This document shows positions 1,143 to 14,035 of a stretch of 60,655 nucleotides of DNA, one piece after another; position 1 is the stretch's first letter, and each line of letters opens with the position of its first letter. The position numbers and the translations under genes were made by a program. This DNA is from a virus (Duplodnaviria; Caudoviricetes): positions 1-60,655 of the IMG/VR virus record IMGVR_UViG_3300020442_003253, one strand, 5' to 3'. Below the pieces are notes generated by a model. It saw nothing but the letters and a program-made list of their open reading frames with translations, did no database searches and was not told where the DNA came from.

Positions 1143-1309
1143 AGTAGGGGGAAGGAATATAAATGTGCCTAAAATTGTCAACCATTGTGTAAGGGGTGTT
1201 TTATCGTGTTGCAAATGGTGTTGAGTAAAGGTTGGAGAAAAATTGCGTTAATCGCCTGCGGGCTTACCGCTTAACGCTTCGCGCAAGAAATACTGCGCTA
1301 AATATCCAT

Positions 1310-1921
1310 ATGAGAATAATTGCTTTTGGATGCAGTATGACATTTGGTCAAGGACTGCCAGATTGTGTACAAGGTAAGAAAAGAGATTTGCCTAGTCAGT
1401 ATGCTTGGCCTAGTGTGTTGGGAAGATTAACAAGGAGACCTGTGATTAATCTTGCAGTACCTGGTGCAAGCAATTTAGAAATTTTACATACAATAAAAAA
1501 ATTCAGCAACACAATTGGATCCCATGATATTGTGTGTGTGATGTGGAGTTACATAGAAAGAAGTTGCGTAATCAAAAATGATTCTGTATTACAGATTGGG
1601 CCATGGATAGATAAGCCTTACAGTAGAGAATATTATAGATTACTTCATGATGCCAGTCATGATAGATTTATGTATCAATTGTATGTGCATCACGCAGACT
1701 ACACGTTAAGATCACATACAGATAATATCTTATATACTGAAGTTTTAGAATCTGGTGCTTTTCCTTTACAACTGCAATGTATGCCTGTAAATTATGGTAA
1801 TATACCAGTAGCTGAAGATCAACCTGCACATGATCTAGGAATAGATGGAATGCATCCTGGCATCATACAACATGAACGATTAGCAAAACAAATCCTGCCT
1901 TATGTCAGACCTTTTCTATAA
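1310..1921 (+). CDS. SGNH/GDSL-like protein
   Basis: MRIIAFGCSMTFG (block I with GCS), NLAVPGASN (block II), DGMHPG (block V); start at 1310 follows TAAATA at 1299-1304. Confidence 0.75.
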   Translation: MRIIAFGCSMTFGQGLPDCVQGKKRDLPSQYAWPSVLGRLTRRPVINLAVPGASNLEILHTIKKFSNTIGSHDIVCVMWSYIERSCVIKNDSVLQIGPWIDKPYSREYYRLLHDASHDRFMYQLYVHHADYTLRSHTDNILYTEVLESGAFPLQLQCMPVNYGNIPVAEDQPAHDLGIDGMHPGIIQHERLAKQILPYVRPFL

Positions 1922-2944: not shown

Positions 2945-3591
2945 TAAAATCCTCCTGAACCTTGTGTTGTTGTTGGGCCTGTAGGAGCTTGAACTAATCT
3001 CTTAGGCAGTCTGTTAATTTTCACAGCAGCACCGTCCTTGTTTAGTGTGAATCTCACAAATGTTTCTTCCTGCCCACGAGCTTGTAGTGTTTTACTGTCA
3101 GTAAAAATAACCTGGAATGGATTTAGCCTGATAACTTCAATGTTAACATCAGCCGGAATACCTGTACCGTAAGATTCGGAACCAATGCTTGGACTACTGT
3201 AATAATGAGCATTAACTACATAGTCGCCTGGTTGTAGTGCTCGCAGTGTTACAATTTCTCTATTAAGGAATATCTTTTCCATCTTTCCGTTTGGCATTAC
3301 GTAATAATCATTACGCACTCCAAGATCGTCTTTGTCTAGATGTACATGCCCGGCGACAGTGTTTATGTAGCTGACTTTGCCATTAGGAGTTTCTACCCAG
3401 AGGTCAATATCGCCTTCGTGATCATCCTGCCAGCTCATTACGATCATTATCTCTGCTTTGTATTCTATTTCAGATGTTTTGGCAGGATTGTTAATCAATA
3501 AGAAGCTGATTAGGAACAGCATCACAAAACCAAGTATTAAGTTGAACAGTAAATCTATAAAGGCAAGATTTGATACGTAACGTCTATCCAT
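2944..3591 (-). CDS. MotB/ExbD-like single-TM protein with YfaP/DUF2135-like C-terminal domain
   Basis: AFIDLLFNLILGF with intramembrane Asp like ExbD PFIDV; SW...DIDLWVETPNG and HLDKDD motifs. Confidence 0.65.
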   Translation of the reverse strand: MDRRYVSNLAFIDLLFNLILGFVMLFLISFLLINNPAKTSEIEYKAEIMIVMSWQDDHEGDIDLWVETPNGKVSYINTVAGHVHLDKDDLGVRNDYYVMPNGKMEKIFLNREIVTLRALQPGDYVVNAHYYSSPSIGSESYGTGIPADVNIEVIRLNPFQVIFTDSKTLQARGQEETFVRFTLNKDGAAVKINRLPKRLVQAPTGPTTTQGSGGF

Positions 3592-4057
3592 CTACGTGCT
3601 CATCCACTAACACAAGTTGTAACTTTAATAGCACACTCGCAATCAAGCCAACCAGTGTAGTCCATAGAGCAGTTCCCATTCCTGTAGCCATCATACCTAG
3701 TGCTTCCTGTACACTTGCGGTATCTTCTACATTAATACCTGTAAACACTGTAGTCAACATATAGATAAATCCTACCACAGTTCCTATCATTCCTAAGCTC
3801 AGCATGGTTTCACCAGCGAACCATTCTGGATTGGTGCTAAATGTGTATCTGTCTTTATCACGGTCAAATCGGTGTAATCTGTAGCCTAGTCTTAGAGAGA
3901 ATAAGAAATATAATCCTATTATTACCCAGCTAATCTTAGTAATGTCACTCTTGTACAAGCTGTCTAGGAATCCAAATGTCCAGCTGAGATACATTACCAA
4001 TACACTTACACAGAGTACCGTATACCATTTAAGTCGAGTTTGTATGTTTTCATTCAT
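3584..4057 (-). CDS. MotA/TolQ/ExbB proton-channel family protein
   Basis: LGMIGTVVGF and GMGTALWTTLVGL match the ExbB/TolQ channel helices, including both conserved Thr. Confidence 0.85.
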   Translation of the reverse strand: MNENIQTRLKWYTVLCVSVLVMYLSWTFGFLDSLYKSDITKISWVIIGLYFLFSLRLGYRLHRFDRDKDRYTFSTNPEWFAGETMLSLGMIGTVVGFIYMLTTVFTGINVEDTASVQEALGMMATGMGTALWTTLVGLIASVLLKLQLVLVDEHVDG

Positions 4058-5700
4058 CAGTTATTTATCTCACCCCATTGTTTAAAAGTGTAACACTTGG
4101 TGTCTACGGTGTGTATATAATCCGATCTATCCTGTGTGCGGATGCGTCCTTGGCCATATACGATGTCATAATCTCTATATGCTACTGGTCTCTGTACTGT
4201 AACGTCTATGTATTCGCCATAACCTGTACCTAGTGTAAGGAATGTTACCCAGCGGCCATTAGTACCGCGGAATGCACGACCATTAGCTACAATGCCTGCA
4301 AACTCTACACGGTCAAGCCACTGCTGCCGTACACCCAACCCATCCGGAAATCCTCGATGCCACCAGCCCGGCTCTGCAGGTACTTTCACCCTGTGTGCTT
4401 CACAGTTGTACACCCAGCGCCTGTAACTGCCTTGGCAATGTTTTAGACATGCTGCCCAGAACTTACGTTTGTTATGTGCTTTCTGATATGCCAATGCCCA
4501 GATAAGTCTTCCTAAGTTAACAGCATGCGCCCTGCACAATCCAAAGCCACTTAGCTCTTGTAGTGCAGCAATAGCTTCCTGCTTGCGTGGGTGATCGCCT
4601 ATCCGCTGCATAAATTCAAGTATCCTTGAATCGTTCTTCTTTGCAAATGCACGGCGATACATGTCTGCTTCGTAGTTGTCTACATCTATTATATCACTGA
4701 TAATCTCAATAGCATCATCCTCAAACACTATTGAGTCCTGTACTGCTTCTCTGCTCCAGTCGTGGAACATAGCAGCCTTCTGCCTACCTGACAGTGCTAC
4801 TGGACGTATCAGTGCAGTAGCAAACACACAATCTTCTACGCTCTGTGGTTGTAGCGCACGGAATAGCCTACGCATCGCAGGGGACTCGCCTTGCGTAACA
4901 CCTAGTACATCTCCCCTGCACAACAGTTCACTTGTAGCAGGATCCGTGCGTGGATAGTCTGCAAGTGCTGTATCCGGATCTATCTCTAGCAGTTGCGACA
5001 ATCCACGATTAGCTAGGATATCTACCTTAAGGTGCTCTAGGTCTTCTACTTCGTATTTGTCCAGTAGTATTTGATTATCTGCTGATATAAGGCTTTTAGG
5101 TAACTGGCGTGTAAACATTACTACACCGCCACAGTGCTTGCTTATACAACGCTTCTTGCCCAAGAGCTTGCGTTCTATACGTTTAGCTTCTTTAGGATCC
5201 ACACCCGCAGATTCATACGTAAATCCACGCTTTAGTGCTCCTGTAGCGCCCAAACGCTTTGCTGCTTCTCTACGTGCGCTCTTTTCTTTATATGTAACGT
5301 AGTTGCTTAAACGTGCAGTTTTACCAGGCCATTTTTTAAATATCCTCTGCATAACTTCATTCTGCCTGTGATGTTCAAAGTCTATGTCAACATCAGGCAA
5401 GTCGTCACGCATTGGATTCATAAAACGTGCAACTGGTATACGCCACTGTACAGGATCAACATCTGTAATACCAAGTAGGTAACAGATGAGGCTAGAGCCT
5501 GCGCTGCCACGTGTCATGTGTGTGAGGTCGTCTGTGAGATCTATTATATCACATATTTGGAGGAAGTAATCTGTGAAGCGTTGATTGAGGATTAGTTCGA
5601 ATTCTTCTACTAGTCTTAGCTTATATTCTTCGCCTTGTGGTATGGGTCTTTTGAAGCGACCCATGAGCCTTTCTATATTATCTAAATCTGTATTTGCCAT
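4057..5700 (-). CDS. dnaE: DNA polymerase III alpha-like (family C), compact, no PHP domain
   Basis: TRGSAGSS, LLGITDVDP, RFMNP.R..PDVDIDF, KHCGGVV, KVDIL, ALIRP, FGLCRAHA; short OB-like C-terminus. Confidence 0.9.
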   Translation of the reverse strand: MANTDLDNIERLMGRFKRPIPQGEEYKLRLVEEFELILNQRFTDYFLQICDIIDLTDDLTHMTRGSAGSSLICYLLGITDVDPVQWRIPVARFMNPMRDDLPDVDIDFEHHRQNEVMQRIFKKWPGKTARLSNYVTYKEKSARREAAKRLGATGALKRGFTYESAGVDPKEAKRIERKLLGKKRCISKHCGGVVMFTRQLPKSLISADNQILLDKYEVEDLEHLKVDILANRGLSQLLEIDPDTALADYPRTDPATSELLCRGDVLGVTQGESPAMRRLFRALQPQSVEDCVFATALIRPVALSGRQKAAMFHDWSREAVQDSIVFEDDAIEIISDIIDVDNYEADMYRRAFAKKNDSRILEFMQRIGDHPRKQEAIAALQELSGFGLCRAHAVNLGRLIWALAYQKAHNKRKFWAACLKHCQGSYRRWVYNCEAHRVKVPAEPGWWHRGFPDGLGVRQQWLDRVEFAGIVANGRAFRGTNGRWVTFLTLGTGYGEYIDVTVQRPVAYRDYDIVYGQGRIRTQDRSDYIHTVDTKCYTFKQWGEINN

Positions 5701-5765: not shown

Positions 5766-6599
5766 TTAGCCTACAAAAGCTTTCTCTACTACATAATCTC
5801 CTGGAGTTCCTGTGTTACCTTCTGCAAATCCATTTGCATCAAGTACACGTTTTAGATCTTCATTAAACTCCATACTGCCACAAAGCATTACACGATCTTG
5901 TTGAGGATCCATTTCTCCTAGCAATACCTTATCATCGATAAGTTCTGTGATGCGTTTTTGATATCCTATGAACAATTCGTCTCTTGTTACAATAGGAAAT
6001 AAATTTAAATCATAACCTGTTAAGTCTGCTCTATATGCTTTAAGTTCATCTTGCTCTCTAACACTCCATGCCACGTTAACTTCTGCAAAGACATTAAAGA
6101 TATCTTTCTGTCTTACTAGACTCATAAAAGGTGCAATACCTGTTCCTGTTGCAAGTAACCAAAGCCTGCGACCTGGCTTTAGGTTTTCTAATAACAGGGT
6201 GCCTGTTGCCTTAGTACCTACTTCAACTGTATCACCAGGCTGAATATTTTTTAGCCTTGAAGTAAGTGCTCCGTCAGGCACCTTGATCGAATAAAATTCT
6301 AAATGATTATCTGTAGGAGAACTGGTAATCGAATAAGCCCTGCGTACCTTATCACCAAGGCCAATCATTACAAACTCACCTGCTTTAAATGTGTATCCTA
6401 CTGGCTTGTCTGTAACAAATCTAAACAGTGTATCGGTATAGTGTTGTACTTCTCTAACCATTACAACATGTTTATCGTTTTTTGGTTTTTCAGCAACCTG
6501 TTCTGCTTGCAGTACTAATAGTTCTGCTTGCCATTCTGCTTCTGATAAAGCATGCCATCCTCTACAAAAATCTGGACTTCGTCCGCATCCACACGCCAT
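5766..6599 (-). CDS. fpr: ferredoxin/flavodoxin-NADP+ reductase with N-terminal CDGSH-like motif
   Basis: RAYSITS, GALTSRL, ATGTGIAPF, VMLCGS, VEKAF; N-terminus CGCGRSPDFCRGWH; AAGGAG SD. Confidence 0.9.
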   Translation of the reverse strand: MACGCGRSPDFCRGWHALSEAEWQAELLVLQAEQVAEKPKNDKHVVMVREVQHYTDTLFRFVTDKPVGYTFKAGEFVMIGLGDKVRRAYSITSSPTDNHLEFYSIKVPDGALTSRLKNIQPGDTVEVGTKATGTLLLENLKPGRRLWLLATGTGIAPFMSLVRQKDIFNVFAEVNVAWSVREQDELKAYRADLTGYDLNLFPIVTRDELFIGYQKRITELIDDKVLLGEMDPQQDRVMLCGSMEFNEDLKRVLDANGFAEGNTGTPGDYVVEKAFVG

Positions 6600-6608
6600 A
6601 GTTCTCCT

Positions 6609-8036
6609 TTAGTCTGATTCAGTGTTTAGGTTATTTAAGAATTCTTTAAGTTTTGTACTGTCAGTCTTGGCTTTGATCTTACCTACTGTATCTCCTTCTG
6701 CAGGATCCTCTCTTACTGTTTCCTGTTGTGTTTGTGCAGTCCTTTTGATCTGATCAAACACTGTGCTCTTACGTTTGTTAAATTCTTGATAGTCTTCGTC
6801 TTCATTCATATCACGTATACGCAGATTATCAATATCAAATTCTAAATCTACTTTACTACCGACACCACTTGAGTTACGTGTTTTCATTAGCTGTATCTGA
6901 TATCTACCACGCTCTCGCATAGCCCTACTTGTAAAGATACCTATTACATTATCCGCAGTTTGTATCTTACTAAGTCCGCCAGATATGTGCGAATGATCAA
7001 ACTCTATCTCCTCTACGCTTGCCCTGTTTAACTGACTAGCTGTAACAAACAGTGTATTAGTTTCCATTGCTAGATTACGTAGTTCTTCACTTACATATTT
7101 GTCCTTAACAAACAAGTTCTCTGCTGATATACGTTTAGCAATAGGCATCATTAGATCTAAGTAATCAACAAGTATTACTTCAATCTTACGTCCTGTCTTA
7201 ACTTCAAACTCTTTAATGTAACTACGTAGATCATTTGCAGTCTTACCGCTTGGCATATACTTGACCTGGAAAGCACCGGACTTCTTCCCTATCATCCTTA
7301 CTTTCATTTCCACATCGTCTATGCTTTTAAATATTTCTCTGCTGGGTATGTCAGTAACCATACTGTCAAGCCTCATGCTTACAATATTTTCACTAAGCTC
7401 AAATGTTAAGTATAGCACATTAAGTCCCGCAAGCGCCCAGTTCACTCCTAGATTAGCTAAGAACAAACTCTTACCAGCACCACTACCGCCTGCAAATATG
7501 TTAAGCTCTCCCCTGTTAAATCCTCCAAACAATCTTTTATCTAGTGTAGCCCAACCTGTGCTAACCTGTCCGTTGCGGCTTTTTATTTCTTCTAGTCTTG
7601 TACGAGGATCTCTCCAATAGTCTGTTCCTAGGTCTTTCTGCAATCCTATCTGTACTGCTTTCTTAACTAAATCTTCAACAGGTCCATACTCGCCTTTCTC
7701 TAGTAAGTCTGCTGACTTGAGGATTGCATCTTCTAATGCTTTATGCCTGCTAAATGTTTCAAACTCCTGTAACAGCCAATCATAGTGTTGTTCTTGTAGT
7801 GTACCAGGATTTTTTAAATCACATTTAGCTGCAGCATTAATCATGTCAAACGTAGGCAATGCGTTATGCTCTGCTACATAATCTTTTAAGAATTCTGCAG
7901 CAGGTTGCAAACGCCTATCAAACGTCTTTGGTTCAAATACACCTTGACATCTTACATAGCTTTCGGCATCTGTAAGGAACATCTCAAGATATACCTTTTG
8001 TATATCGTATCCGTAATCTACATTTTGTCTTGACAT
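6609..8036 (-). CDS. gp41: replicative DnaB-family helicase (T4 gp41-like)
   Basis: GGSGAGKS Walker A, LTFELSE, LVDYLDLM, TASQLNR, LMKTRN. Confidence 0.92.
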   Translation of the reverse strand: MSRQNVDYGYDIQKVYLEMFLTDAESYVRCQGVFEPKTFDRRLQPAAEFLKDYVAEHNALPTFDMINAAAKCDLKNPGTLQEQHYDWLLQEFETFSRHKALEDAILKSADLLEKGEYGPVEDLVKKAVQIGLQKDLGTDYWRDPRTRLEEIKSRNGQVSTGWATLDKRLFGGFNRGELNIFAGGSGAGKSLFLANLGVNWALAGLNVLYLTFELSENIVSMRLDSMVTDIPSREIFKSIDDVEMKVRMIGKKSGAFQVKYMPSGKTANDLRSYIKEFEVKTGRKIEVILVDYLDLMMPIAKRISAENLFVKDKYVSEELRNLAMETNTLFVTASQLNRASVEEIEFDHSHISGGLSKIQTADNVIGIFTSRAMRERGRYQIQLMKTRNSSGVGSKVDLEFDIDNLRIRDMNEDEDYQEFNKRKSTVFDQIKRTAQTQQETVREDPAEGDTVGKIKAKTDSTKLKEFLNNLNTESD

Positions 8037-8048
8037 TTATTCAAATAT

Positions 8049-8765
8049 TTAAATATATTTTTTTTCTTGCAACCAAGGTATGATAACCTGGTCTGTAAAT
8101 AGTTTATGCTGTTCACTTGTTGGGTGAATACCGTGTTTCGGAATTATAATATCAGTATTTTCTTTACACCATTCGTAGCAACCTTTATTACCTAGTATAA
8201 AAGGATTCCAGTTTATTAAATTTATAAGATGCTCTGTTACAGGACTAGCATGTATATCTTCTAAGACACTATCCATATAAGTAAGCATAAAATATTTAAT
8301 GTTGTACTTTTCTAACAACAATTGTGTATATAAAATATATTCTAAAGTTTTTATAACACCGAACATAGGATCATAAAATCTATAAGTATTCATGGCATAC
8401 GGATTTTTCCAGCGAGCATTTTGTATAACCCATCCACCTGGATCATTTTCTACAAAATTGTCAGGATTTACCAACCAACCATCATAATTCCGTGATCTCA
8501 ATTTATGTATGATATGTTGATCAGTTGTATAAAATTCACTTCGACTAGTTCCACTCCACATGATGCCAACAAGGATATTTTCATAATCATCTTGCTGTGA
8601 TATTTCATAAATTAATTTTCTGGCAATTAGACCGTTACCTTGACTCCCCATAGAACAGTTAGTCCATGAAGACGGTTGTAAAATTTTATTCAGTTGTGCA
8701 GTCCACGGTTGTACCCCTCCTGTATATGTTTCTCCAAAACTACAGGCACTAGTTATTAAAATCAT
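8049..8765 (-). CDS. SGNH/GDSL-like protein
   Basis: LITSACSF (block I variant), N.SMGSQGN, GIMWSG..R, GIHPTSEQH. Confidence 0.65.
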   Translation of the reverse strand: MILITSACSFGETYTGGVQPWTAQLNKILQPSSWTNCSMGSQGNGLIARKLIYEISQQDDYENILVGIMWSGTSRSEFYTTDQHIIHKLRSRNYDGWLVNPDNFVENDPGGWVIQNARWKNPYAMNTYRFYDPMFGVIKTLEYILYTQLLLEKYNIKYFMLTYMDSVLEDIHASPVTEHLINLINWNPFILGNKGCYEWCKENTDIIIPKHGIHPTSEQHKLFTDQVIIPWLQEKKYI

Positions 8766-9159
8766 AATTTATCCCCATCGTAAATAATGCATTTACTGCA
8801 TTTTCAGTTGGCTTACGTGCAAACACACACCATTGTAACACTTCTTCGTCTGGATAGTTTTCTGCAACATAATCTCGGAAGCTCTTACCTGTTGTGTATA
8901 CATCGTCTACAACAAGCACAGGATCGTCTATGTTCTGTGTACCGTATCGATTAAGTGCTTCGCCTAATGCTACACCGCCTCTGGGTATACCTACAGCAGC
9001 TCGCCAGTTACGAGGTTCAAACTCGCGGATAATATGTGCAAGGGCAATCCATTCTTCTGGTGATATAGCATCACACTCAATTTTCCATGTAAGTGGTAAG
9101 CCTGCATGGCTTATAAAATTTATTTTTTGGAATAGGTCTATGTTAATGTTTTTATTCAT
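8749..9159 (-). CDS. type I phosphoribosyltransferase
   Basis: PRPP-binding loop LVVDDVYTTGKS; GIPRGG. Confidence 0.85.
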   Translation of the reverse strand: MNKNINIDLFQKINFISHAGLPLTWKIECDAISPEEWIALAHIIREFEPRNWRAAVGIPRGGVALGEALNRYGTQNIDDPVLVVDDVYTTGKSFRDYVAENYPDEEVLQWCVFARKPTENAVNALFTMGINYDFNN

Positions 9160-10679
9160 GAAAATACCTTTACATTGTATAGTTTACTAAATTCTTGTGC
9201 ATCTGTCAATGTGTTTACTATAGGTTTGCCTTTTATATTGAGGCTAGTGTTTAACAGCATAGGACAGCCTGTTAGTTCGTACCATCTTTCCAACAATAAT
9301 CTAAAACCAGGGTGATCTTCTTTTGTAACTGTTTGAACTCTGCTTGTTCCGTCTGCGTGGATAACTGCAGGGTATCGTTCAGGATCCTTACAATGTGCGG
9401 TGTACTGCATATAACGTCCGAAGGGCGGCTCAAATAAACTGGCTGCATATTCTTGAAGAACTGCGGGTGCAAATGGTCTAAACTTCTGTCTGCGTTTGAT
9501 GGCATTGACTTTATCTTTAATATCCATACGCTGAGGGTCAGCAAGAAGGCTGCGAGCGCCAAGGCTACGAGGACCGAACTCGGCTCTTCCTGACGCAACC
9601 CCTGCAATACCCGTTTGCATAAGTTCATTAACGATTTCATCTACTGGATATTCTCCTTCTATATCGTAACCTAAATAAGGTCCAGGCCACTCTGTATGTG
9701 TACCTCTGTGTGCAAGTACTGCTCCTATGCAACTGCCTGCATCACCTGGATTAGGCATTATCCAAACGTTATCAGCACCGTTCCAATGCTCAACTATCTT
9801 GCTGTTAGCACTACAATTCAAAGCACAGCCGCCCATAAACACTATATTACTGCTAGTGTATGTCCTGGCTACAGCCTTACTTATCCTAGTTAAAATATAT
9901 TCATATGCCCATTGTGTTCCGGCTGCTACATCATATGCCCATTGGGTAAACTCTTGCTTACCGTCTATTATATTGAATGCAATTTCAGTAGGCTCCCACC
10001 ACATACATCCTCTATGTAGATTGTGTTTCAAATGGAAATTAGGCAAACGATCAAACATATTAAGAAGATTTGAACTCTTATCCCAAAATGCATTTAATAT
10101 CTTTTCTCCATACTGACTGGCATTGCCATATGCTGCCATGCCCATTAATATGTACTCTTCCTCATTTGGTTTAAGTCCAATACGTTGTGTCATCGCACTA
10201 TACCAAATGCCTATACTGTTAGGATAGTTCCAGGTACGCTTACATGTAAGTTTATCGTACTCACCTTCCCATACGCTAAGAGTATTCCATTCGCCAATAG
10301 CATCAATAACTAGCACAGTTGCATGATCAAATCCGCTAGTATAGTATCCAGCTGCTGCATGTGAATGATGATGCCCTACTGTTGATATAGGTGCTGTTAA
10401 GCCAAAAGATTTTAAATATTTTTTTATACAATTCTTGTTTAATAAATCTTTTTGCCCAGCATATAGTTGCCGTGTAGTTTTAAGGAAAGGTTTTTCGTAC
10501 CATACAATCCTATCAGGTTCTCCCCATTGTAATGCGTAATTGACAATATCTTTATTTAGATGTGGATCATTTTTTATTCCACTAAACCTTTCTGTATGAC
10601 TAGCAAATTTGATAACATCATTATGATGTACAGATATTGCCGCATCGTGACTATTTGCGCTCACGCCCCATGTTATCAT
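9156..10679 (-). CDS. carbamoyltransferase (NodU/CmcH/TobZ family)
   Basis: SHDAA, ERFS..KND, HHHSHAA, ID.IGE, MGMAAYG, GGCALN, GDAG, EFGPRSLG.RS, FRPFAP, H.DGTSRVQTV, LNTSLN. Confidence 0.93.
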   Translation of the reverse strand: MITWGVSANSHDAAISVHHNDVIKFASHTERFSGIKNDPHLNKDIVNYALQWGEPDRIVWYEKPFLKTTRQLYAGQKDLLNKNCIKKYLKSFGLTAPISTVGHHHSHAAAGYYTSGFDHATVLVIDAIGEWNTLSVWEGEYDKLTCKRTWNYPNSIGIWYSAMTQRIGLKPNEEEYILMGMAAYGNASQYGEKILNAFWDKSSNLLNMFDRLPNFHLKHNLHRGCMWWEPTEIAFNIIDGKQEFTQWAYDVAAGTQWAYEYILTRISKAVARTYTSSNIVFMGGCALNCSANSKIVEHWNGADNVWIMPNPGDAGSCIGAVLAHRGTHTEWPGPYLGYDIEGEYPVDEIVNELMQTGIAGVASGRAEFGPRSLGARSLLADPQRMDIKDKVNAIKRRQKFRPFAPAVLQEYAASLFEPPFGRYMQYTAHCKDPERYPAVIHADGTSRVQTVTKEDHPGFRLLLERWYELTGCPMLLNTSLNIKGKPIVNTLTDAQEFSKLYNVKVFS

Positions 10680-10682
10680 ATT

Positions 10683-10817
10683 TTAATCATAAATAAAAGG
10701 ATCTTGTTTTCGTAGTTCTTTTAATCTTTTCCTAAACTCTATTTCTTCTTTTATCCAAAAATAAGGATAAGTTATATAATATTTTATTTTACTAACGATT
10801 TTTTTTAACCAAACCAT
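10683..10817 (-). CDS. 44-aa microprotein ending in DPFIYD (SxtK/DUF5989- or DltX-like motif)
   Basis: Hand translation MVWLKKIVSKIKYYITYPYFWIKEEIEFRKRLKELRKQDPFIYD*; fills the primase-carbamoyltransferase gap, overlaps the primase stop and ends 3 nt before the next ATG. Confidence 0.75.
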   Translation of the reverse strand: MVWLKKIVSKIKYYITYPYFWIKEEIEFRKRLKELRKQDPFIYD

Positions 10818-11785
10818 TTTTTTACCTTTAATTTTATTTTTAACGATGATCTTTCAGCAGATTTAATAATATTATAAAGAGTTAAAACTCTGCCATAAAT
10901 ATTTACCGCATCTGATATATCATTAATCTTATCTGACCAATTTGGCATGCTTACTTGCCATCCTAAATCAATAGCCTGTTCGGTTAATTTTTTTCCAGAT
11001 TTGTCTTTATCTGGAACTACAATAATATTTTTATTGTAAGTTTCAATTAACATTTTTTGTAAAGATGAAATTTCTGAACCTAAAATGCTTACACCGTTAA
11101 TGTGTAATGCATCAAACGGTCCCTCACAAACTATTATAAAATTATTATCAAATGATTGGTTGTCTAGATTATAAACAAATCCTGGTTGCGATTGTGTTAA
11201 GTATTTTGGTTTTGCATCATTTATACTTCTTGCAGTATAACCTACTATCTTTGAATTAAAAGTAAAAGGTAAAATTAATCTTGTATTGTAACCTACAGAT
11301 GGTGACCAATAAAAATTTGTGTCTTCTAAACATAAATTCCGTTTTGCAATATATTCAAATATAGGAATGATTTTGTTAGGTATATTTGTTACATTATTGA
11401 TACATTGAGACTGTGCTGGTAATTCAATAGTTTTAAATTTTGGCAGTTGAAGTTCTGGAATTTTCTTTGTAGCTATATCTGTTTGCCGCAACAGAGCTAG
11501 AGTTAACTTATTAATTAACTCATCAGTTACATTTATCCATTGCAAAAATTTTTTGAATTTAACTGTTAATTGCCTGCCATTTTGCCAGTTGCATTTAAAA
11601 CCACAATTAAAACAATGGTAGCTTACACCTGATTCAGGATGTATCATTAAGCCACCTCGTCCTCTTGTATCCTGGGCATGCCCATTATTATGGCAACAAG
11701 GTGCATTGAACGAAATCCACCCGCTAGGTGTATTTTTTCTTTTCGCTGGTATGTGTGAAATTACAATATCAGATACAGATAACAT
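10805..11785 (-). CDS. gp61: DNA primase (T4 gp61-like)
   Basis: Zn ribbon PCC...YHCFNCG; TOPRIM CEGPFDA and PDKDKSG. Confidence 0.88.
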   Translation of the reverse strand: MLSVSDIVISHIPAKRKNTPSGWISFNAPCCHNNGHAQDTRGRGGLMIHPESGVSYHCFNCGFKCNWQNGRQLTVKFKKFLQWINVTDELINKLTLALLRQTDIATKKIPELQLPKFKTIELPAQSQCINNVTNIPNKIIPIFEYIAKRNLCLEDTNFYWSPSVGYNTRLILPFTFNSKIVGYTARSINDAKPKYLTQSQPGFVYNLDNQSFDNNFIIVCEGPFDALHINGVSILGSEISSLQKMLIETYNKNIIVVPDKDKSGKKLTEQAIDLGWQVSMPNWSDKINDISDAVNIYGRVLTLYNIIKSAERSSLKIKLKVKKWFG

Positions 11786-12984: not shown

Positions 12985-13548
12985 TTATTCATGTGATAGT
13001 TTTTTGCATAATAAATTCATGTGTATTACAACAGCAACTGCATAAGATATTGCATGCGCTTTTTTAAAATAATATTCTCCATTAGTAGGTTTAATCCAGA
13101 CTTTTTTTTCTATAACATCCCACTCTTCTTGCAATAAAAATCTTTTTGCAGGTCGAATTATTGCAAGCACAGCAGCGAGTTGTTCTATGTTTCTAGGTTT
13201 AAGTTTTGCACAAATTTCATAATGTCCTGCCAAATGAAACAATAAATCTACAAACTCTTTATGTTCTAAAAGCTCCCACAACGGTTCTTGTTCCATAAGT
13301 TGTAGTAGATGTTCTTCATTTTTTATTTCACTGTATATTGAGACATTTAGAAAATCTAATTTAAAATATCCACGATCTTCTGCAACTTTGTAATCAATTG
13401 TAGCTACATTTGTAAAAGGATTACAAGGTATTTCAGTTACATAAATGCCTGTATTATGCTTTTTATTATTAGGTAATGCAGCTATCCTATGATCTATGAT
13501 AGATAAAATTTTGTTTCTATCAGCAAAATCTATATCAATGTCAGGCAT
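12985..13548 (-). CDS. dnaE: mini DnaE-like protein (palm/fingers fragment, 187 aa)
   Basis: MPDIDIDF, KHNTGIY, YFKLDFLN, LAIIRP, YFKKAHAISYA; lacks the upstream RGS segment. Confidence 0.8.
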   Translation of the reverse strand: MPDIDIDFADRNKILSIIDHRIAALPNNKKHNTGIYVTEIPCNPFTNVATIDYKVAEDRGYFKLDFLNVSIYSEIKNEEHLLQLMEQEPLWELLEHKEFVDLLFHLAGHYEICAKLKPRNIEQLAAVLAIIRPAKRFLLQEEWDVIEKKVWIKPTNGEYYFKKAHAISYAVAVVIHMNLLCKKLSHE

Positions 13549-14035
13549 ATTTTGTATATTTTTTTGCTTTTTTGTTTGCTATTTTCCAAACTAACGGCGA
13601 GACACGATCTTTAAAAGTTATACCTTGTAAATGATCCCACTCATGTAAAAAAACTTTTACGCTATAATCTGTTAGGTGTGTGCGTTTCTTTTCTAAGTTT
13701 TCATCATAGTATTCTACAAGAATTTCTTTTGGTCTTTTTACTTGTGCAAAAACATTAGGAAAACTTAGGCAGCCTTCTACATCAATTACAATTTCTTCAG
13801 TATGTTGTAAAACTGTAGGATTTATAAGCATTGAGCTATTTTCTTCACTGTCACCCATTACAAATAATTGTGCATCTAATCCTACTTGATTAGCAGACAA
13901 TCCGATACCATTGTTAGAAAGCATAAATTCAACCATTTCTTTTTTTAGTTCTACTGGATCAAATGTAGGAACATTAATATCTACATCTGCAACTTTTTTT
14001 GTAAGGAATTCATCCGGATAATATACAAGTTTCAT
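13541..14035 (-). CDS. def: peptide deformylase
   Basis: GIGLSANQ, EGCLS, HEWDH. Confidence 0.95.
   Translation of the reverse strand: MKLVYYPDEFLTKKVADVDINVPTFDPVELKKEMVEFMLSNNGIGLSANQVGLDAQLFVMGDSEENSSMLINPTVLQHTEEIVIDVEGCLSFPNVFAQVKRPKEILVEYYDENLEKKRTHLTDYSVKVFLHEWDHLQGITFKDRVSPLVWKIANKKAKKYTKYA

What the first reader, a model, noticed from the sequence alone, without database searches (positions are those of the whole stretch)
8049..10817. Candidate tyrosine carbamoyl-shuttle system: PFIY microprotein + carbamoyltransferase + PRTase + SGNH
Seen: an ORF missing from the supplied track (10683-10817, 44 aa, ends RKQDPFIYD) lies 3 nt upstream of a NodU/CmcH carbamoyltransferase, followed by overlapping PRTase and SGNH genes, all inserted between primase and helicase. 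Known: DltX and AlgI-type MBOAT tails use a C-terminal F-[IV]-Y-x-x-F motif whose Tyr carries an acyl group to an SGNH protein (DltD, AlgJ). Bacterial sxtI-like carbamoyltransferases sit beside small SxtK/DUF5989 proteins ending (from memory) in PFIYTLF and beside SGNH genes. Inference: an MBOAT-free relay, carbamoyl-AMP to microprotein Tyr to SGNH Ser to acceptor (virion/surface glycan or nucleotide). The motif lacks the terminal x-F and the peptide has no clear TM helix, so it may be a soluble variant.
Basis: partly seen in the sequence, partly recalled or inferred. Interest (0 to 1): 0.85.

Follow-up and report, generated by a model that had tools for sequence, protein, structure and literature searches.

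The report
Tyrosine-tailed microprotein partner of carbamoyltransferase
A hidden 44-residue phage gene belongs to a very large unnamed family of tiny proteins that end in an invariant tyrosine and always travel with one branch of carbamoyl-adding enzymes, and often with esterase-like proteins, so it probably receives and passes on the carbamoyl group.

Summary
The 44-aa ORF (10683-10817, minus) ends ...RKQDPFIYD, stops 3 nt before a TobZ/NodU-type carbamoyltransferase (CT), and is followed by overlapping PRT-like and SGNH-fold (DUF6071) genes between primase and helicase.

The ORF is a real gene. A profile of it finds 495 cluster representatives. Tyr is kept in 149 of the best 150, and codons vary synonymously.

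It travels with the CT, not the primase. Of 73 primase loci, 16 have CT plus tail, 0 have CT alone and 56 have neither. Bacteria with the same CT clade carry the same tail (45 of 60 loci), often fused to the C-terminus of DUF6071 or GDSL-like SGNH proteins.

A controlled complex model (0.62 against 0.00) puts the tail in the CT acceptor site, beside the catalytic His and the oxyanion hole.

Best reading (about 0.5): the Tyr takes the carbamoyl group from the CT and hands it to SGNH-like transferases, a soluble, MBOAT-free counterpart of the DltX/PatA acyl-tyrosine shuttle. No chemistry is shown. The PRT-like gene is an accessory.

The scan reached the same reading earlier on other DNA (e1-5945606).

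The parts
10683..10817 (-). Microprotein gene, 44 aa: variable amphipathic N-part, basic helix (RKRLKELRK), C-terminal tail DPFIYD.
   Evidence: ORF. No Pfam, PHROG or NCBIfam family. Profile search finds 495 representatives at E<=1e-3. Synonymous codon variation across 84 distinct nucleotide versions.
10686..10703 (-). Codons of the tail D39-P40-F41-I42-Y43-D44. Y43 (10689-10691) is the proposed carbamoyl acceptor.
   Evidence: Sequence. D39, P40 and Y43 invariant in A1. Tyr kept in 149 of 150 best family hits, with no Tyr-to-Phe. Residues 36-37 and 39-44 form the predicted interface with the CT.
9156..10679 (-). Carbamoyltransferase of TobZ/NodU/CmcH type: Kae1-like N domain plus YrdC-like C domain, 507 aa.
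   Evidence: Pfam Carbam_trans_N and Carbam_trans_C. PHROG 1601 at 331 bits. Best solved relative is NovN 9s2t, E 2e-51. H11, H103, H107, D126 and D313 invariant in A2. Clade loop N220-L-H-R-G-C225 is in the predicted tail contact.
8749..9159 (-). PRT-like small protein (136 aa) with a VVVDDVYTTGKS PRPP-type loop. Accessory, not part of the conserved module.
   Evidence: Sub-threshold Pribosyltran hit and sub-threshold NCBIfam PRT hits. 451 homologues. Next to the CT in only L004, L005, L006 and L011, 4 of 80 loci.
8049..8765 (-). SGNH-fold protein of the DUF6071 family (238 aa), with putative nucleophile S9 in a G/A-C-S block, G43-N44 and H214. Proposed carbamoyl acceptor and transferase.
   Evidence: Many of the listed homologues carry PF19547. 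Invariants. AF2 pLDDT 93.2. Foldseek best hits are TesA/TAP and other GDSL/SGNH enzymes, and PatB at ranks 24-42.
1232..1921 (+). Second, divergent DUF6071-like SGNH paralogue. The likely start is the ATG at 1310 (MRIIAFGCSMTFG...).
   Evidence: genome-search hits. Translation. hhalign to A3 gives probability 95%.
10805..11785 (-). Primase (Toprim), upstream border of the cassette. Context only.
   Evidence: In 56 of 73 related primase loci the helicase follows directly, with no CT and no tail.
6609..8036 (-). DnaB-like helicase, downstream border of the cassette. Context only.

Best explanation
**What it is.** The 44-aa protein is the dedicated partner of the neighbouring carbamoyltransferase.

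**Shown**
- It is a conserved, protein-level-selected gene of a very large unnamed family.
- The family's only constant part is a basic helix followed by D-P-F-I-Y plus zero to two residues.
- It is gained and lost together with one CT clade, in phages and in bacteria.
- In bacteria the same tail is often the C-terminal arm of an SGNH-fold protein (DUF6071 or GDSL-like).

**Modelled.** The tail inserts into the acceptor pocket of the CT's Kae1-like domain. Tyr43 lies beside the catalytic His11 loop and the oxyanion-hole residues 127-128, next to metal ligand D126.

**Inferred mechanism**
1. The CT makes carbamoyl-AMP from carbamoyl phosphate and ATP, as TobZ and GdmN do.
2. It transfers the carbamoyl group to the Tyr hydroxyl, giving an O-aryl carbamate.
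3. The flexible tail carries it to the Ser nucleophile of a DUF6071-type SGNH protein (8049-8765, perhaps also 1232-1921).
4. That enzyme passes it to a final hydroxyl or amine acceptor, which is still unknown. A glycan or a small metabolite is most likely.

This would be a cytoplasmic, MBOAT-free counterpart of the DltX/PatA acyl-tyrosine shuttle. Within the CT superfamily it parallels HypF loading the C-terminal Cys of HypE.
For: **Real gene**
- 495 representatives at E<=1e-3.
- 120 of the best 150 end DPFIY plus one residue.
- Tyr is kept in 149 of 150, while the F and I positions vary.
- All four Pro codons and all three Ile codons are used.

**Linkage to the CT**
- 71 of 80 viral CT loci have the tail within 5 kb.
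- In 4 of 5 'tail-less' loci tested, the tail gene lies elsewhere on the contig.
- Of 73 primase loci: 16 have CT plus tail, 0 CT only, 1 tail only (the contig ends 905 nt after the primase), 56 neither.
- 45 of 60 bacterial loci with a CT of at least 42% identity carry the tail. 0 of 16 loci with distant CTs do.

**Fusions**
- The tail is fused to DUF6071 (110-175 bits) and to GDSL-like proteins.
- In the 20-row fusion alignment S10, H209, D293 and Y297 are invariant, and the linker is variable.
- SGNH-like genes lie within 6 kb of the CT in 42 of 61 bacterial loci: 29 DUF6071 and 13 GDSL-like.

**Complex model**
- ipSAE 0.62 (runs 0.62, 0.64, 0.59) against a best control of 0.00.
- Partner pLDDT 72-74, and the runs agree in at least 100% of contacts.
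- The mark was reached by 58 of 80 solved complexes and 2 of 110 mismatched pairs. These counts hold only roughly, because my own alignments were used.

**Mapping of the contacts.** Through the NovN alignment and the GdmN paper (passages), H11 is the general base H27, D126 is the Fe ligand 156, and 127-128 are the oxyanion hole 157-158.

**Short CT forms.** CT variants cut down to the Kae1-like domain still keep the tail gene (8 of 16 loci).

**Precedents**
- Acyl-Tyr to SGNH-Ser transfer in Dlt, PatAB and OatA (PMC12148441, abstract and passages).
- HypE C-terminal Cys in a PRIC motif (abstract in the listing).
Against: - No biochemical datum exists. Carbamoyl-tyrosine as a natural intermediate was not found in print.
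- In phages the SGNH gene is seldom adjacent. BLAST with six SGNH queries hit 6 of the 80 viral loci. Of five large related contigs, two showed no DUF6071-like gene in the part held.
- The tail is also fused to GatZ/KbaZ-like (7 loci) and SnoaL-like (1 locus) domains. This fits a general docking or arm peptide as well as a carrier.
- Carbamoyl-serine enzymes tend to be long-lived, so turnover through an SGNH Ser is not assured (general chemistry, recalled).
- The regular expression used for the bacterial count was widened after the variants had been seen (DRFIYP, RDFLYP), so 45 of 60 is partly post hoc.
Confidence: 0.5

Rival explanations
1. Docking or activator peptide only. The tail binds the CT (and recruits whatever it is fused to) without covalent chemistry. 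It would gate or shape the acceptor pocket, or bring the SGNH, GatZ-like or SnoaL-like enzymes next to the CT for substrate channelling.
For: The tail is fused to unrelated domains: GatZ/KbaZ-like, SnoaL-like, DUF6071 and GDSL-like. The complex model shows binding, not chemistry. The N-terminal parts are highly variable.
Against: Tyr is kept in 149 of 150 hits with no Tyr-to-Phe, although the F and I positions vary. Phe would keep a purely hydrophobic contact. The model puts the tail in the acceptor position itself, next to the general base and the oxyanion hole, where it would block any other acceptor.
Confidence: 0.2
2. Terminal modification. The Tyr is carbamoylated by the CT, but that is the end product: a regulatory mark on the microprotein or enzyme, or a RiPP-like peptide product. 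It would not be a carrier.
For: TobZ-like CTs that act on peptides exist: a preprint on Lys carbamoylation in a Streptomyces RiPP cluster was seen in a search listing only (PMC13174530). The acceptor-site model fits this reading too.
Against: The tail sits on full-size SGNH enzymes in many bacteria. SGNH genes accompany the CT in 42 of 61 bacterial loci. An aryl carbamate is an activated donor, and SGNH enzymes take acyl groups from Tyr in Dlt, Pat and OatA. No protease or exporter typical of RiPP clusters was noticed next to the cassette, but this was not searched systematically.
Confidence: 0.17
3. The CT is a nucleic-acid modifier, a 5-hydroxymethylcytosine carbamoyltransferase as in the MetaGPA study. 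It would sit among replication genes for that reason, with the microprotein as an unrelated or accessory neighbour.
For: Phage CTs of this superfamily make 5-carbamoyloxymethylcytosine in vitro (PMC8670742, abstract and passages). The cassette lies between primase and helicase.
Against: That enzyme class co-occurs with a thymidylate-synthase-like dCMP hydroxymethylase. No Thymidylat_synt match is in the window. Only 2 of 5 large related contigs have one, at 337-352 bits over the whole model, which I read (my judgement, no call) as ordinary ThyA; the 93%-complete contig has none. The same CT clade with the same tail sits in bacterial loci, some on large chromosomal contigs, including Streptomyces, Sorangium and Reyranella. 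The characterised enzyme's sequence, printed in the paper, was not compared.
Confidence: 0.05
4. The ORF is a chance open frame in AT-rich DNA and is not translated.
For: It is short, absent from gene tracks, and unannotated in Ralstonia phage RsoM2USA.
Against: 495 related representatives. The frame is kept at 35-90% CT identity in phages and bacteria. Synonymous codon variation. Co-variation with the CT.
Confidence: 0.01

Closest known systems
DltX/DltB/DltD, and the PatA/PatB, AlgI/J/X and OatA acyl-tyrosine shuttles (FXYXXF 'acyl shuttle' motif)
   Same: An invariant Tyr sits in a conserved C-terminal peptide, either on a microprotein (DltX) or fused to an enzyme (PatA). The partner is an SGNH-fold protein that takes the group on its Ser. 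The core F-x-Y is shared. Source: PMC12148441.
   Different: No MBOAT or AT3 gene is in the window. The donor enzyme is a soluble ATP-dependent TobZ-type CT. The group would be carbamoyl, not acyl. There is no TM helix. The motif ends one residue after Tyr and lacks xxF. The whole system is probably cytoplasmic. There is no sequence homology beyond the motif.
   Same: It is a microprotein next to a NodU/CmcH-type CT: 30 of 31 loci have a CT within 1.5 kb. The shared core is P-F-I-Y. The sxt cluster also holds a GDSL-like SxtL (PMC2885083, passages).
   Different: DUF5989 has a TM helix and the full tail APFIYTLF, in 29 of 31 loci. Its CTs are only about 30% identical to this one. The window peptide gives no HMM match. 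hhalign aligns only 5 columns at probability 22%.
HypF-HypE ([NiFe]-hydrogenase maturation)
   Same: A CT with the same YrdC-like and Kae1-like domains loads a carbamoyl group onto a residue at the flexible C-terminus of a partner protein, the Cys of a PRIC motif (abstract in the listing). There is a weak hypF hit on the window CT.
   Different: The acceptor is a Cys thiol rather than a Tyr hydroxyl. The group is then dehydrated to cyanide rather than transferred. The partner is a 35-kDa ATPase, not a microprotein. The domain order of the CT differs.
TobZ, GdmN and NovN O-carbamoyltransferases
   Same: Both Pfam domains are present. The catalytic His, the HxxxH and Asp metal ligands and the oxyanion-hole position are conserved.
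   Different: Those enzymes carbamoylate small-molecule hydroxyls directly and have no peptide partner. The clade here has its own loop, N-L-H-R-G-C (220-225), at the predicted tail contact.

Membership tests
DltX/MBOAT acyl-shuttle motif | C-terminal hexapeptide F-X-Y-X-X-F | tested here: not met
   The tail is F41-I42-Y43-D44-stop. The family mostly ends Y plus one residue. The motif definition comes from PMC12148441.
DltX/MBOAT acyl-shuttle motif | Invariant Tyr in the C-terminal motif | tested here: met
   Y43 is invariant in A1 and kept in 149 of 150 hits.
DltX/MBOAT acyl-shuttle motif | Membrane microprotein, or motif on an MBOAT, with an MBOAT (or AT3) donor enzyme present | tested here: not met
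   The longest uncharged run is 10 residues. No MBOAT or Acyl_transf_3 match is in the window. The window is only about 17% of the genome.
DltX/MBOAT acyl-shuttle motif | SGNH-fold partner that receives the group | tested here: inconclusive
   An SGNH-fold DUF6071 gene lies in the same operon, and tail-SGNH fusions occur in bacteria. Binding or transfer was not tested. The AF2 fusion model gave no confident docking.
DltX/MBOAT acyl-shuttle motif | Covalent acyl-Tyr intermediate | not testable with these tools
   Needs mass spectrometry.
DUF5989 (PF19451) | Match to the family HMM above 27 bits | tested here: not met
   No hit even at E<=10. The six-frame search of the window gave only a spurious 18.5-bit hit elsewhere, with two stops inside. 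hhalign probability is 22% over 5 columns.
DUF5989 (PF19451) | TM helix followed by ...PFIYTLF, next to a CT | tested here: inconclusive
   The PFIY core and adjacency to a CT are met. The TM helix and the TLF ending are not.
NodU/CmcH/TobZ carbamoyltransferase (for 9156-10679) | Carbam_trans_N and Carbam_trans_C domains above their cut-offs | tested here: met
   136.2 bits (cut-off 24) and 167.1 bits (cut-off 27).
NodU/CmcH/TobZ carbamoyltransferase (for 9156-10679) | Catalytic His, HxxxH plus Asp metal ligands | tested here: met
   H11, H103, H107, D126 and D313 are invariant. They align to NovN H27, H133, H137 and D156. Their roles come from the GdmN paper.
SGNH hydrolase / DUF6071 (for 8049-8765) | SGNH fold with Ser, Gly, Asn and His blocks | tested here: met
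   AF2 pLDDT 93.2. Foldseek gives TesA and other SGNH enzymes at probability 1.0. S9, G43, N44 and H214 are conserved. The Asp of the triad was not identified.
SGNH hydrolase / DUF6071 (for 8049-8765) | DUF6071 HMM above 27 bits | tested here: inconclusive
   The window protein scores 16.5 bits. Many of its listed homologues carry PF19547.
Type I phosphoribosyltransferase (for 8749-9159) | Pribosyltran HMM above its cut-off, with a PRPP loop | tested here: inconclusive
   19.2 bits against a cut-off of 26.3. A PRPP-like loop VVVDDVYTTGKS is seen in the sequence. Some sources call homologues PRT-like.
5hmC carbamoyltransferase (MetaGPA) | Co-occurrence with a thymidylate-synthase-like dCMP hydroxymethylase | tested here: not met
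   None in the window. 2 of 5 related contigs have a full-length Thymidylat_synt match, which I read as ordinary ThyA. The window is a fragment.
5hmC carbamoyltransferase (MetaGPA) | Close sequence relation to the characterised enzyme | not tested
   Its sequence is only in the paper and was not typed.

The most novel reading that the evidence does not exclude
A general, unrecognised carbamoyl-tyrosine carrier system. CT clades of the NodU/CmcH/SxtI type that have a PFIY partner do not carbamoylate their final substrates directly. They load the C-terminal Tyr of a microprotein, and SGNH-fold enzymes then deliver the group. The microprotein is either soluble (DPFIY-x, as here) or membrane-anchored (DUF5989, APFIYTLF). 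This would give a function to the 495-cluster microprotein family, to DUF5989 and to DUF6071. It would recast the long-unexplained small ORFs and the GDSL-like gene beside sxtI-type CTs. It would also show that large marine phages carry a modular carbamoylation relay.
Probability: 0.35. Interest if true: 0.9.

Novelty: new variant of a known kind. Interest (0 to 1): 0.8.

Why it matters
- **A new form of a recent mechanism.** Tyrosine as a covalent group carrier to SGNH enzymes is a recently established mechanism for acylating cell-envelope polymers. A soluble, ATP-driven carbamoyl version would extend it to a new chemistry, a new donor enzyme class and the cytoplasm.
- **Functions for unnamed families.** It would assign a role to a very large family of unannotated microproteins (495 representatives of 50%-identity clusters) and to two Pfam DUFs on which no paper was found.
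- **An old puzzle becomes testable.** The small ORFs that accompany sxtI-type carbamoyltransferases were still described as uncharacterised in the 2010 review read here. One mass-spectrometry experiment would test their role.
- **Annotation.** Gene callers miss these ORFs. The copy in Ralstonia phage RsoM2USA lies in an unannotated gap.

Tried and rejected
1. **Nucleotide search of the region in the phage collection.** No match.
2. **Protein word-index search with the 44-aa peptide.** Only 7 close hits. The profile search was needed.
3. **ESM Atlas look-up.** It returned only unnamed small clusters of 160, 74 and 63 members. This is a lead, not evidence.
4. **Pfam scan of ten divergent family members.** Nothing above any cut-off.
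5. **AF2 of a DUF6071-tail fusion** (L133, 20-row alignment), to see whether the tail docks on its own SGNH domain. Mean pLDDT was 76, the basic helix about 71, and the last three residues below 50. No verdict either way.
6. **RNA evidence.** Four RNA-library runs hold contigs 85-95% like the CT and PRT genes, but next to nothing over the microprotein (depth 0.66 in one bin of one run). They are contigs of relatives and may include DNA, so they say nothing about expression of the ORF.
7. **'Travels with the primase'.** Rejected by the primase scan.
8. **PRT-like gene as part of the relay.** Rejected as a core part.
9. **DNA 5hmC carbamoylation.** Considered and given low odds.
11. **Supplementary files of the papers.** Closed. 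The supplements of PMC8670742 (CT tree and contig lists) and PMC9633730 (CT subclade alignment) might show whether this clade was sampled there.


Full report
**1. Observation**

One search lists a 44-aa ORF at 10683-10817 on the minus strand (MVWLKK...RKQDPFIYD). One search shows three things:
- its TAA stop, three spacer bases and the ATG of the next gene;
- a 13-nt overlap of its start with the primase stop;
- an AAAGG box 8 nt upstream of the start (also seen).

All six genes lie on the minus strand with short overlaps: primase 10805-11785, microprotein, CT 9156-10679, PRT-like 8749-9159, SGNH-like 8049-8765, helicase 6609-8036.

Gene identities:
- The CT carries both Pfam carbamoyltransferase domains (136 and 167 bits) and PHROG 1601, 'Nol-like carbamoyltransferase'.
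- The microprotein matches no Pfam, PHROG or NCBIfam model, even at E<=10.
- The window is a fragment of a large marine phage, with CheckV completeness 17%. Near-identical DNA is held by at least 8 marine or seawater runs at half or more of the sampled words.

**2. The microprotein is a real, widespread gene**

A scan of viral contigs with the CT gave 173 confirmed relatives, of which the best 80 were kept.
- In 71 of the 80, an ORF ending [KR]-x-D-P-[FY]-[IL]-Y plus one residue lies within the 5-kb flank. It is usually directly upstream of the CT and often overlaps its start.
- For 5 of the 9 remaining loci I searched the whole contig. 4 encode the microprotein further away.
- The same tail stands by the CT of Ralstonia phage RsoM2USA, in an unannotated gap, and of Marine virus AG-345-D19. 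These CTs are 43-45% identical to the window's.

A 38-row alignment (A1) has D39, P40 and Y43 invariant, a basic helix before them, and an N-terminal part that varies freely: W/Y-rich, acidic, or absent.

A profile of A1 against 1.84 billion cluster representatives found 495 proteins at E<=1e-3 and 18 at E<=1e-10.
- Of the best 150, 120 end DPFIY plus one residue and 6 end at the Tyr.
- Tyr is kept in 149 of 150. The one exception has a different C-terminus altogether.
- The Phe position shows Y, S and H, and the Ile position shows T, N, R, H and V.
- There is no Tyr-to-Phe case.

Across 84 distinct nucleotide versions the five codons vary synonymously, with four Pro, three Ile, two Asp and two Tyr codons. 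This shows selection on the peptide. Within the window only this one ORF tail matches the tail profile.

**3. It belongs to the CT, not to the primase**

A scan with the primase gave 73 loci. Their content is as follows:

| Content | Loci |
|---|---|
| CT plus tail | 16 |
| CT without tail | 0 |
| Tail without CT | 1 (the contig ends 905 nt after the primase) |
| Neither (helicase follows the primase directly) | 56 |

The pair is therefore a cassette that comes and goes as a unit. At least ten viral loci with a full 5-kb upstream flank have the tail and CT without any primase or helicase homologue.

In 8 of the 16 cassette loci the CT is cut down to its Kae1-like N domain. These align to residues 1 to 323-333 of the window CT. 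The L221 ORF, the one read in full, is 319 aa and still has the catalytic motifs, and the tail gene is kept in all eight. This fits a partnership with that domain.

**4. Bacteria**

A scan of one genome per species with the CT alignment gave 80 loci.
- Of the 60 loci with a full-length CT at 42-57% identity, 45 have the tail. The variants are DPFIY, DPFIY-K, DPYIYP, DRFIYP, RDFLYP, DPFMYK, DPHLYK and NPFIYP.
- The pattern was widened after the variants had been seen, so this count is partly post hoc. Several misses are short contigs.
- Of the 16 loci with distant CTs (28-36% identity), none has the tail.

In many bacteria the tail is not a microprotein but the C-terminus of an SGNH-type enzyme:
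- It is fused to DUF6071 (Pfam 110-175 bits) in Streptomyces, Antrihabitans, Sorangium, a Magnetococcales MAG and an actinobacterial MAG.
- It is fused to a GDSL-like protein in other MAGs and in Geodermatophilus.
- A 20-row alignment of DUF6071-tail fusions keeps S10 (in Y-A-N-G-C-S), N59-D60, H209, H215, D293 and Y297. Between the domain and the tail lies a variable Arg-rich linker of some 30-70 residues, which has the look of a flexible arm.
- By clustering of neighbours, DUF6071 occurs in 29 and the GDSL-like protein in 13 of 61 bacterial loci.

In phages the tail is also found fused to a GatZ/KbaZ-like aldolase-fold protein (7 loci) and to a SnoaL-like domain (1 locus).

**5. The other genes of the window cassette**

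*The SGNH-like gene (8049-8765).*
- It has 257 homologues, and many of the 120 listed carry PF19547.
- C8, S9 and N44 are invariant, and G43 and H214 nearly so.
- Its AF2 model has pLDDT 93.2.
- Foldseek against the PDB gives E. coli TesA/TAP first (probability 1.0, TM up to 0.67 on the target). Many GDSL/SGNH esterases follow, with the peptidoglycan O-acetyltransferase PatB at ranks 24-42.

So 'SGNH' is right, and the family is DUF6071, the same family that carries the tail in bacteria.

A second, divergent DUF6071-like gene lies at 1232-1921 on the plus strand.

DUF6071-like genes are not always present, or not always near:
- Of five large related contigs, three gave a match.
- These include the 93%-complete one, where the matches lie far from the CT.
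- Two gave none in the part held.

*The PRT-like gene.* It has a PRPP-type loop but only sub-threshold family scores. It belongs to a widespread marine family of 451 hits. It sits by the CT in only 4 of 80 loci. I treat it as an accessory.

**6. Where the tail binds**

The results:
- ipSAE was 0.62 (runs 0.62, 0.64, 0.59). The best of three controls scored 0.00.
- Partner pLDDT was 72-74, and the runs agreed in at least 100% of contacts.
- The mark was reached by 58 of 80 solved complexes and 2 of 110 mismatched pairs. The tool warns that these counts hold only roughly with my own alignments.
- The model supports binding but does not show it.
- A distantly similar complex (HypE-HypF) has, to my recollection (no call), been solved, so some memory effect cannot be excluded.

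The interface is residues 36-37 and 39-44 of the peptide against CT residues 10-11, 71, 74, 76, 127-128, 158, 161-162, 165, 171-172, 221-224 and 226-227.

The contacts map onto solved enzymes as follows, using the phmmer alignment to NovN (9s2t) and the numbering that NovN shares with GdmN:

| Window CT | GdmN | Role (PMC9633730, passages) |
|---|---|---|
| H11 | H27 | general base |
| H103, H107, D126 | 133, 137, 156 | Fe ligands |
| A127-I128 | G157-R158 | backbone oxyanion hole |

The equivalence of NovN and GdmN numbering is my inference from identical motif positions.

Tyr43 is listed in contact with 127, 128, 158, 161, 171, 172 and 222. The tail therefore occupies the acceptor site. The loop N-L-H-R-G-C (220-225), which touches D39 to I42, is conserved in the tail-linked clade and absent from the distant CTs.

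**7. Comparison with what is known**

PMC12148441 (abstract and passages) describes three things:
- the FXYXXF 'acyl shuttle' motif of DltX and of MBOAT C-termini;
- the acyl-Tyr intermediate;
- transfer of the acyl group to the Ser of the SGNH partner.

That paper does not mention carbamoyl.

*DUF5989.* The recalled DUF5989 tail is also right.
- PF19451 is DUF5989.
- It was over its cut-off in 61 of 301 sampled genomes of one phylum.
- In 31 loci, 29 end APFIYTLF and 30 have a CT homologue within 1.5 kb.
- One such pair turned up beside a 31%-identical CT in a Nitrospirota MAG.

*The sxt cluster.* Reviews of the sxt cluster say that sxtJ and sxtK are uncharacterised short ORFs next to sxtI, and that SxtL is GDSL-like (PMC2885083 and PMC2679770, passages).

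*Membership.* The window peptide is not a DUF5989 member. It gives no HMM match, and hhalign aligns only DPFIY to APFIY at probability 22%. It has no TM helix. It is not a DltX-type motif either, since only one residue follows the Tyr. No MBOAT or AT3 gene is in the window.

*Precedent within the CT superfamily.* HypF loads the C-terminal Cys of HypE, in a PRIC motif (abstract in the listing).

**8. Rival: DNA modification**

Phage CTs can make 5-carbamoyloxymethylcytosine. Such CTs co-occur with thymidylate-synthase-like hydroxymethylases (PMC8670742, abstract and passages). Against this rival:
- The window has no such gene.
- 2 of 5 large related contigs have a full-length Thymidylat_synt match at 337-352 bits, which I read as ordinary ThyA. 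The 93%-complete contig has none.
- The same CT clade with the same tail sits in bacterial genomes.

I give this rival about 0.05. I did not compare the characterised enzyme's sequence.

**9. Verdict**

The evidence falls into three grades:
- **Shown:** a large, unnamed, tyrosine-tailed microprotein family is tied to one CT clade and, through fusions and neighbourhood, to SGNH-fold enzymes.
- **Modelled:** the tail sits in the CT acceptor site.
- **Inferred:** carbamoyl-AMP to Tyr to SGNH Ser to an unknown acceptor.

My odds:

| Reading | Odds |
|---|---|
| Full relay | about 0.5 |
| Docking only | 0.2 |
| Terminal mark | 0.17 |
| Other readings | remainder |

**10. Novelty and print status**
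- Full-text searches for DUF5989 and DUF6071 found no paper.
- A search for DltX plus tyrosine plus carbamoyltransferase counted 4 papers; only one work was listed, and it was not relevant.
- A search for carbamoyl-tyrosine terms and 'acyl shuttle' found only the Dlt/Pat papers, two papers on engineered enzymes and one unrelated metabolomics preprint.
- An earlier agent of this scan reached the same reading on another genome (e1-5945606). All counts here are my own.

Noticed in passing
window 1232-1921 (+): A second, divergent DUF6071-like SGNH gene (GCS block, MHPGIIQH block). It lies 6 kb from the cassette on the other strand.
   Followed up: partly
L212-L214, L216, L221, L226, L227, L233 (e.g. 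L221:5091-6050): In 8 of 16 primase-linked cassettes the CT is only the Kae1-like N domain (319 aa in L221, the one ORF read; catalytic motifs kept there) and lacks the YrdC-like domain that makes carbamoyl-AMP. The tail gene is still present. Where the adenylate comes from is open.
   Followed up: partly
L001 (Ralstonia phage RsoM2USA) 56-3980 and 3038-3148: Three DUF6071-like paralogues, all annotated hypothetical, stand upstream of the CT. The tail microprotein lies in an unannotated gap between the second and third.
   Followed up: partly
L034, L046, L058, L060-L062, L082 (about 363-365 aa); L072:4588-5004: The DPFIY tail is fused to a GatZ/KbaZ-like class II aldolase-fold protein in 7 viral loci, and to a SnoaL-like domain in one. 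This may hint at the pathway or acceptor.
   Followed up: partly
P0008 (75 aa): One family representative holds two tandem copies of the microprotein, each ending DPFIYK, in one open frame.
   Followed up: no
L165-L195: DUF5989 is over its cut-off in 61 of 301 sampled genomes of one bacterial phylum. It is nearly always directly beside a CT of about 30% identity, with an almost invariant tail APFIYTLF and a single TM helix.
   Followed up: partly
L099, L102, L106, L107, L111, L113, L116, L124, L126, L154 and others: A Streptomyces locus type has the CT, a DUF6071 ending RDFLYP on the opposite strand, and a conserved 455-aa protein (MTDVLLIWPPHVPSYFNAGHH...) found in 22 loci. It looks like a biosynthetic cluster. 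The 455-aa protein was not identified.
   Followed up: no
window 4057-5700 (-), 12985-13548 (-), 13541-14035 (-), 5766-6599 (-), 3584-4057 (-): The phage encodes several other notable genes: a DNA polymerase III alpha-like core (NTPase and finger domains, 547 aa); a 187-aa ORF beginning MPDIDIDF with no Pfam hit; a peptide deformylase; a ferredoxin-reductase-like FAD/NAD protein; and a small MotA/ExbB-like membrane protein.
   Followed up: no
window 8749-9159 (-): The PRT-like protein belongs to a large marine family (451 hits) that is mostly unannotated, or variously named hypoxanthine- or orotate-PRT-like. It is independent of the CT.
   Followed up: partly
L006:6610-6993: In the closest relative with a different layout, a GDSL-like ORF sits between the CT and the PRT-like gene. 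The microprotein there is separated from the CT by about 550 nt.
   Followed up: no
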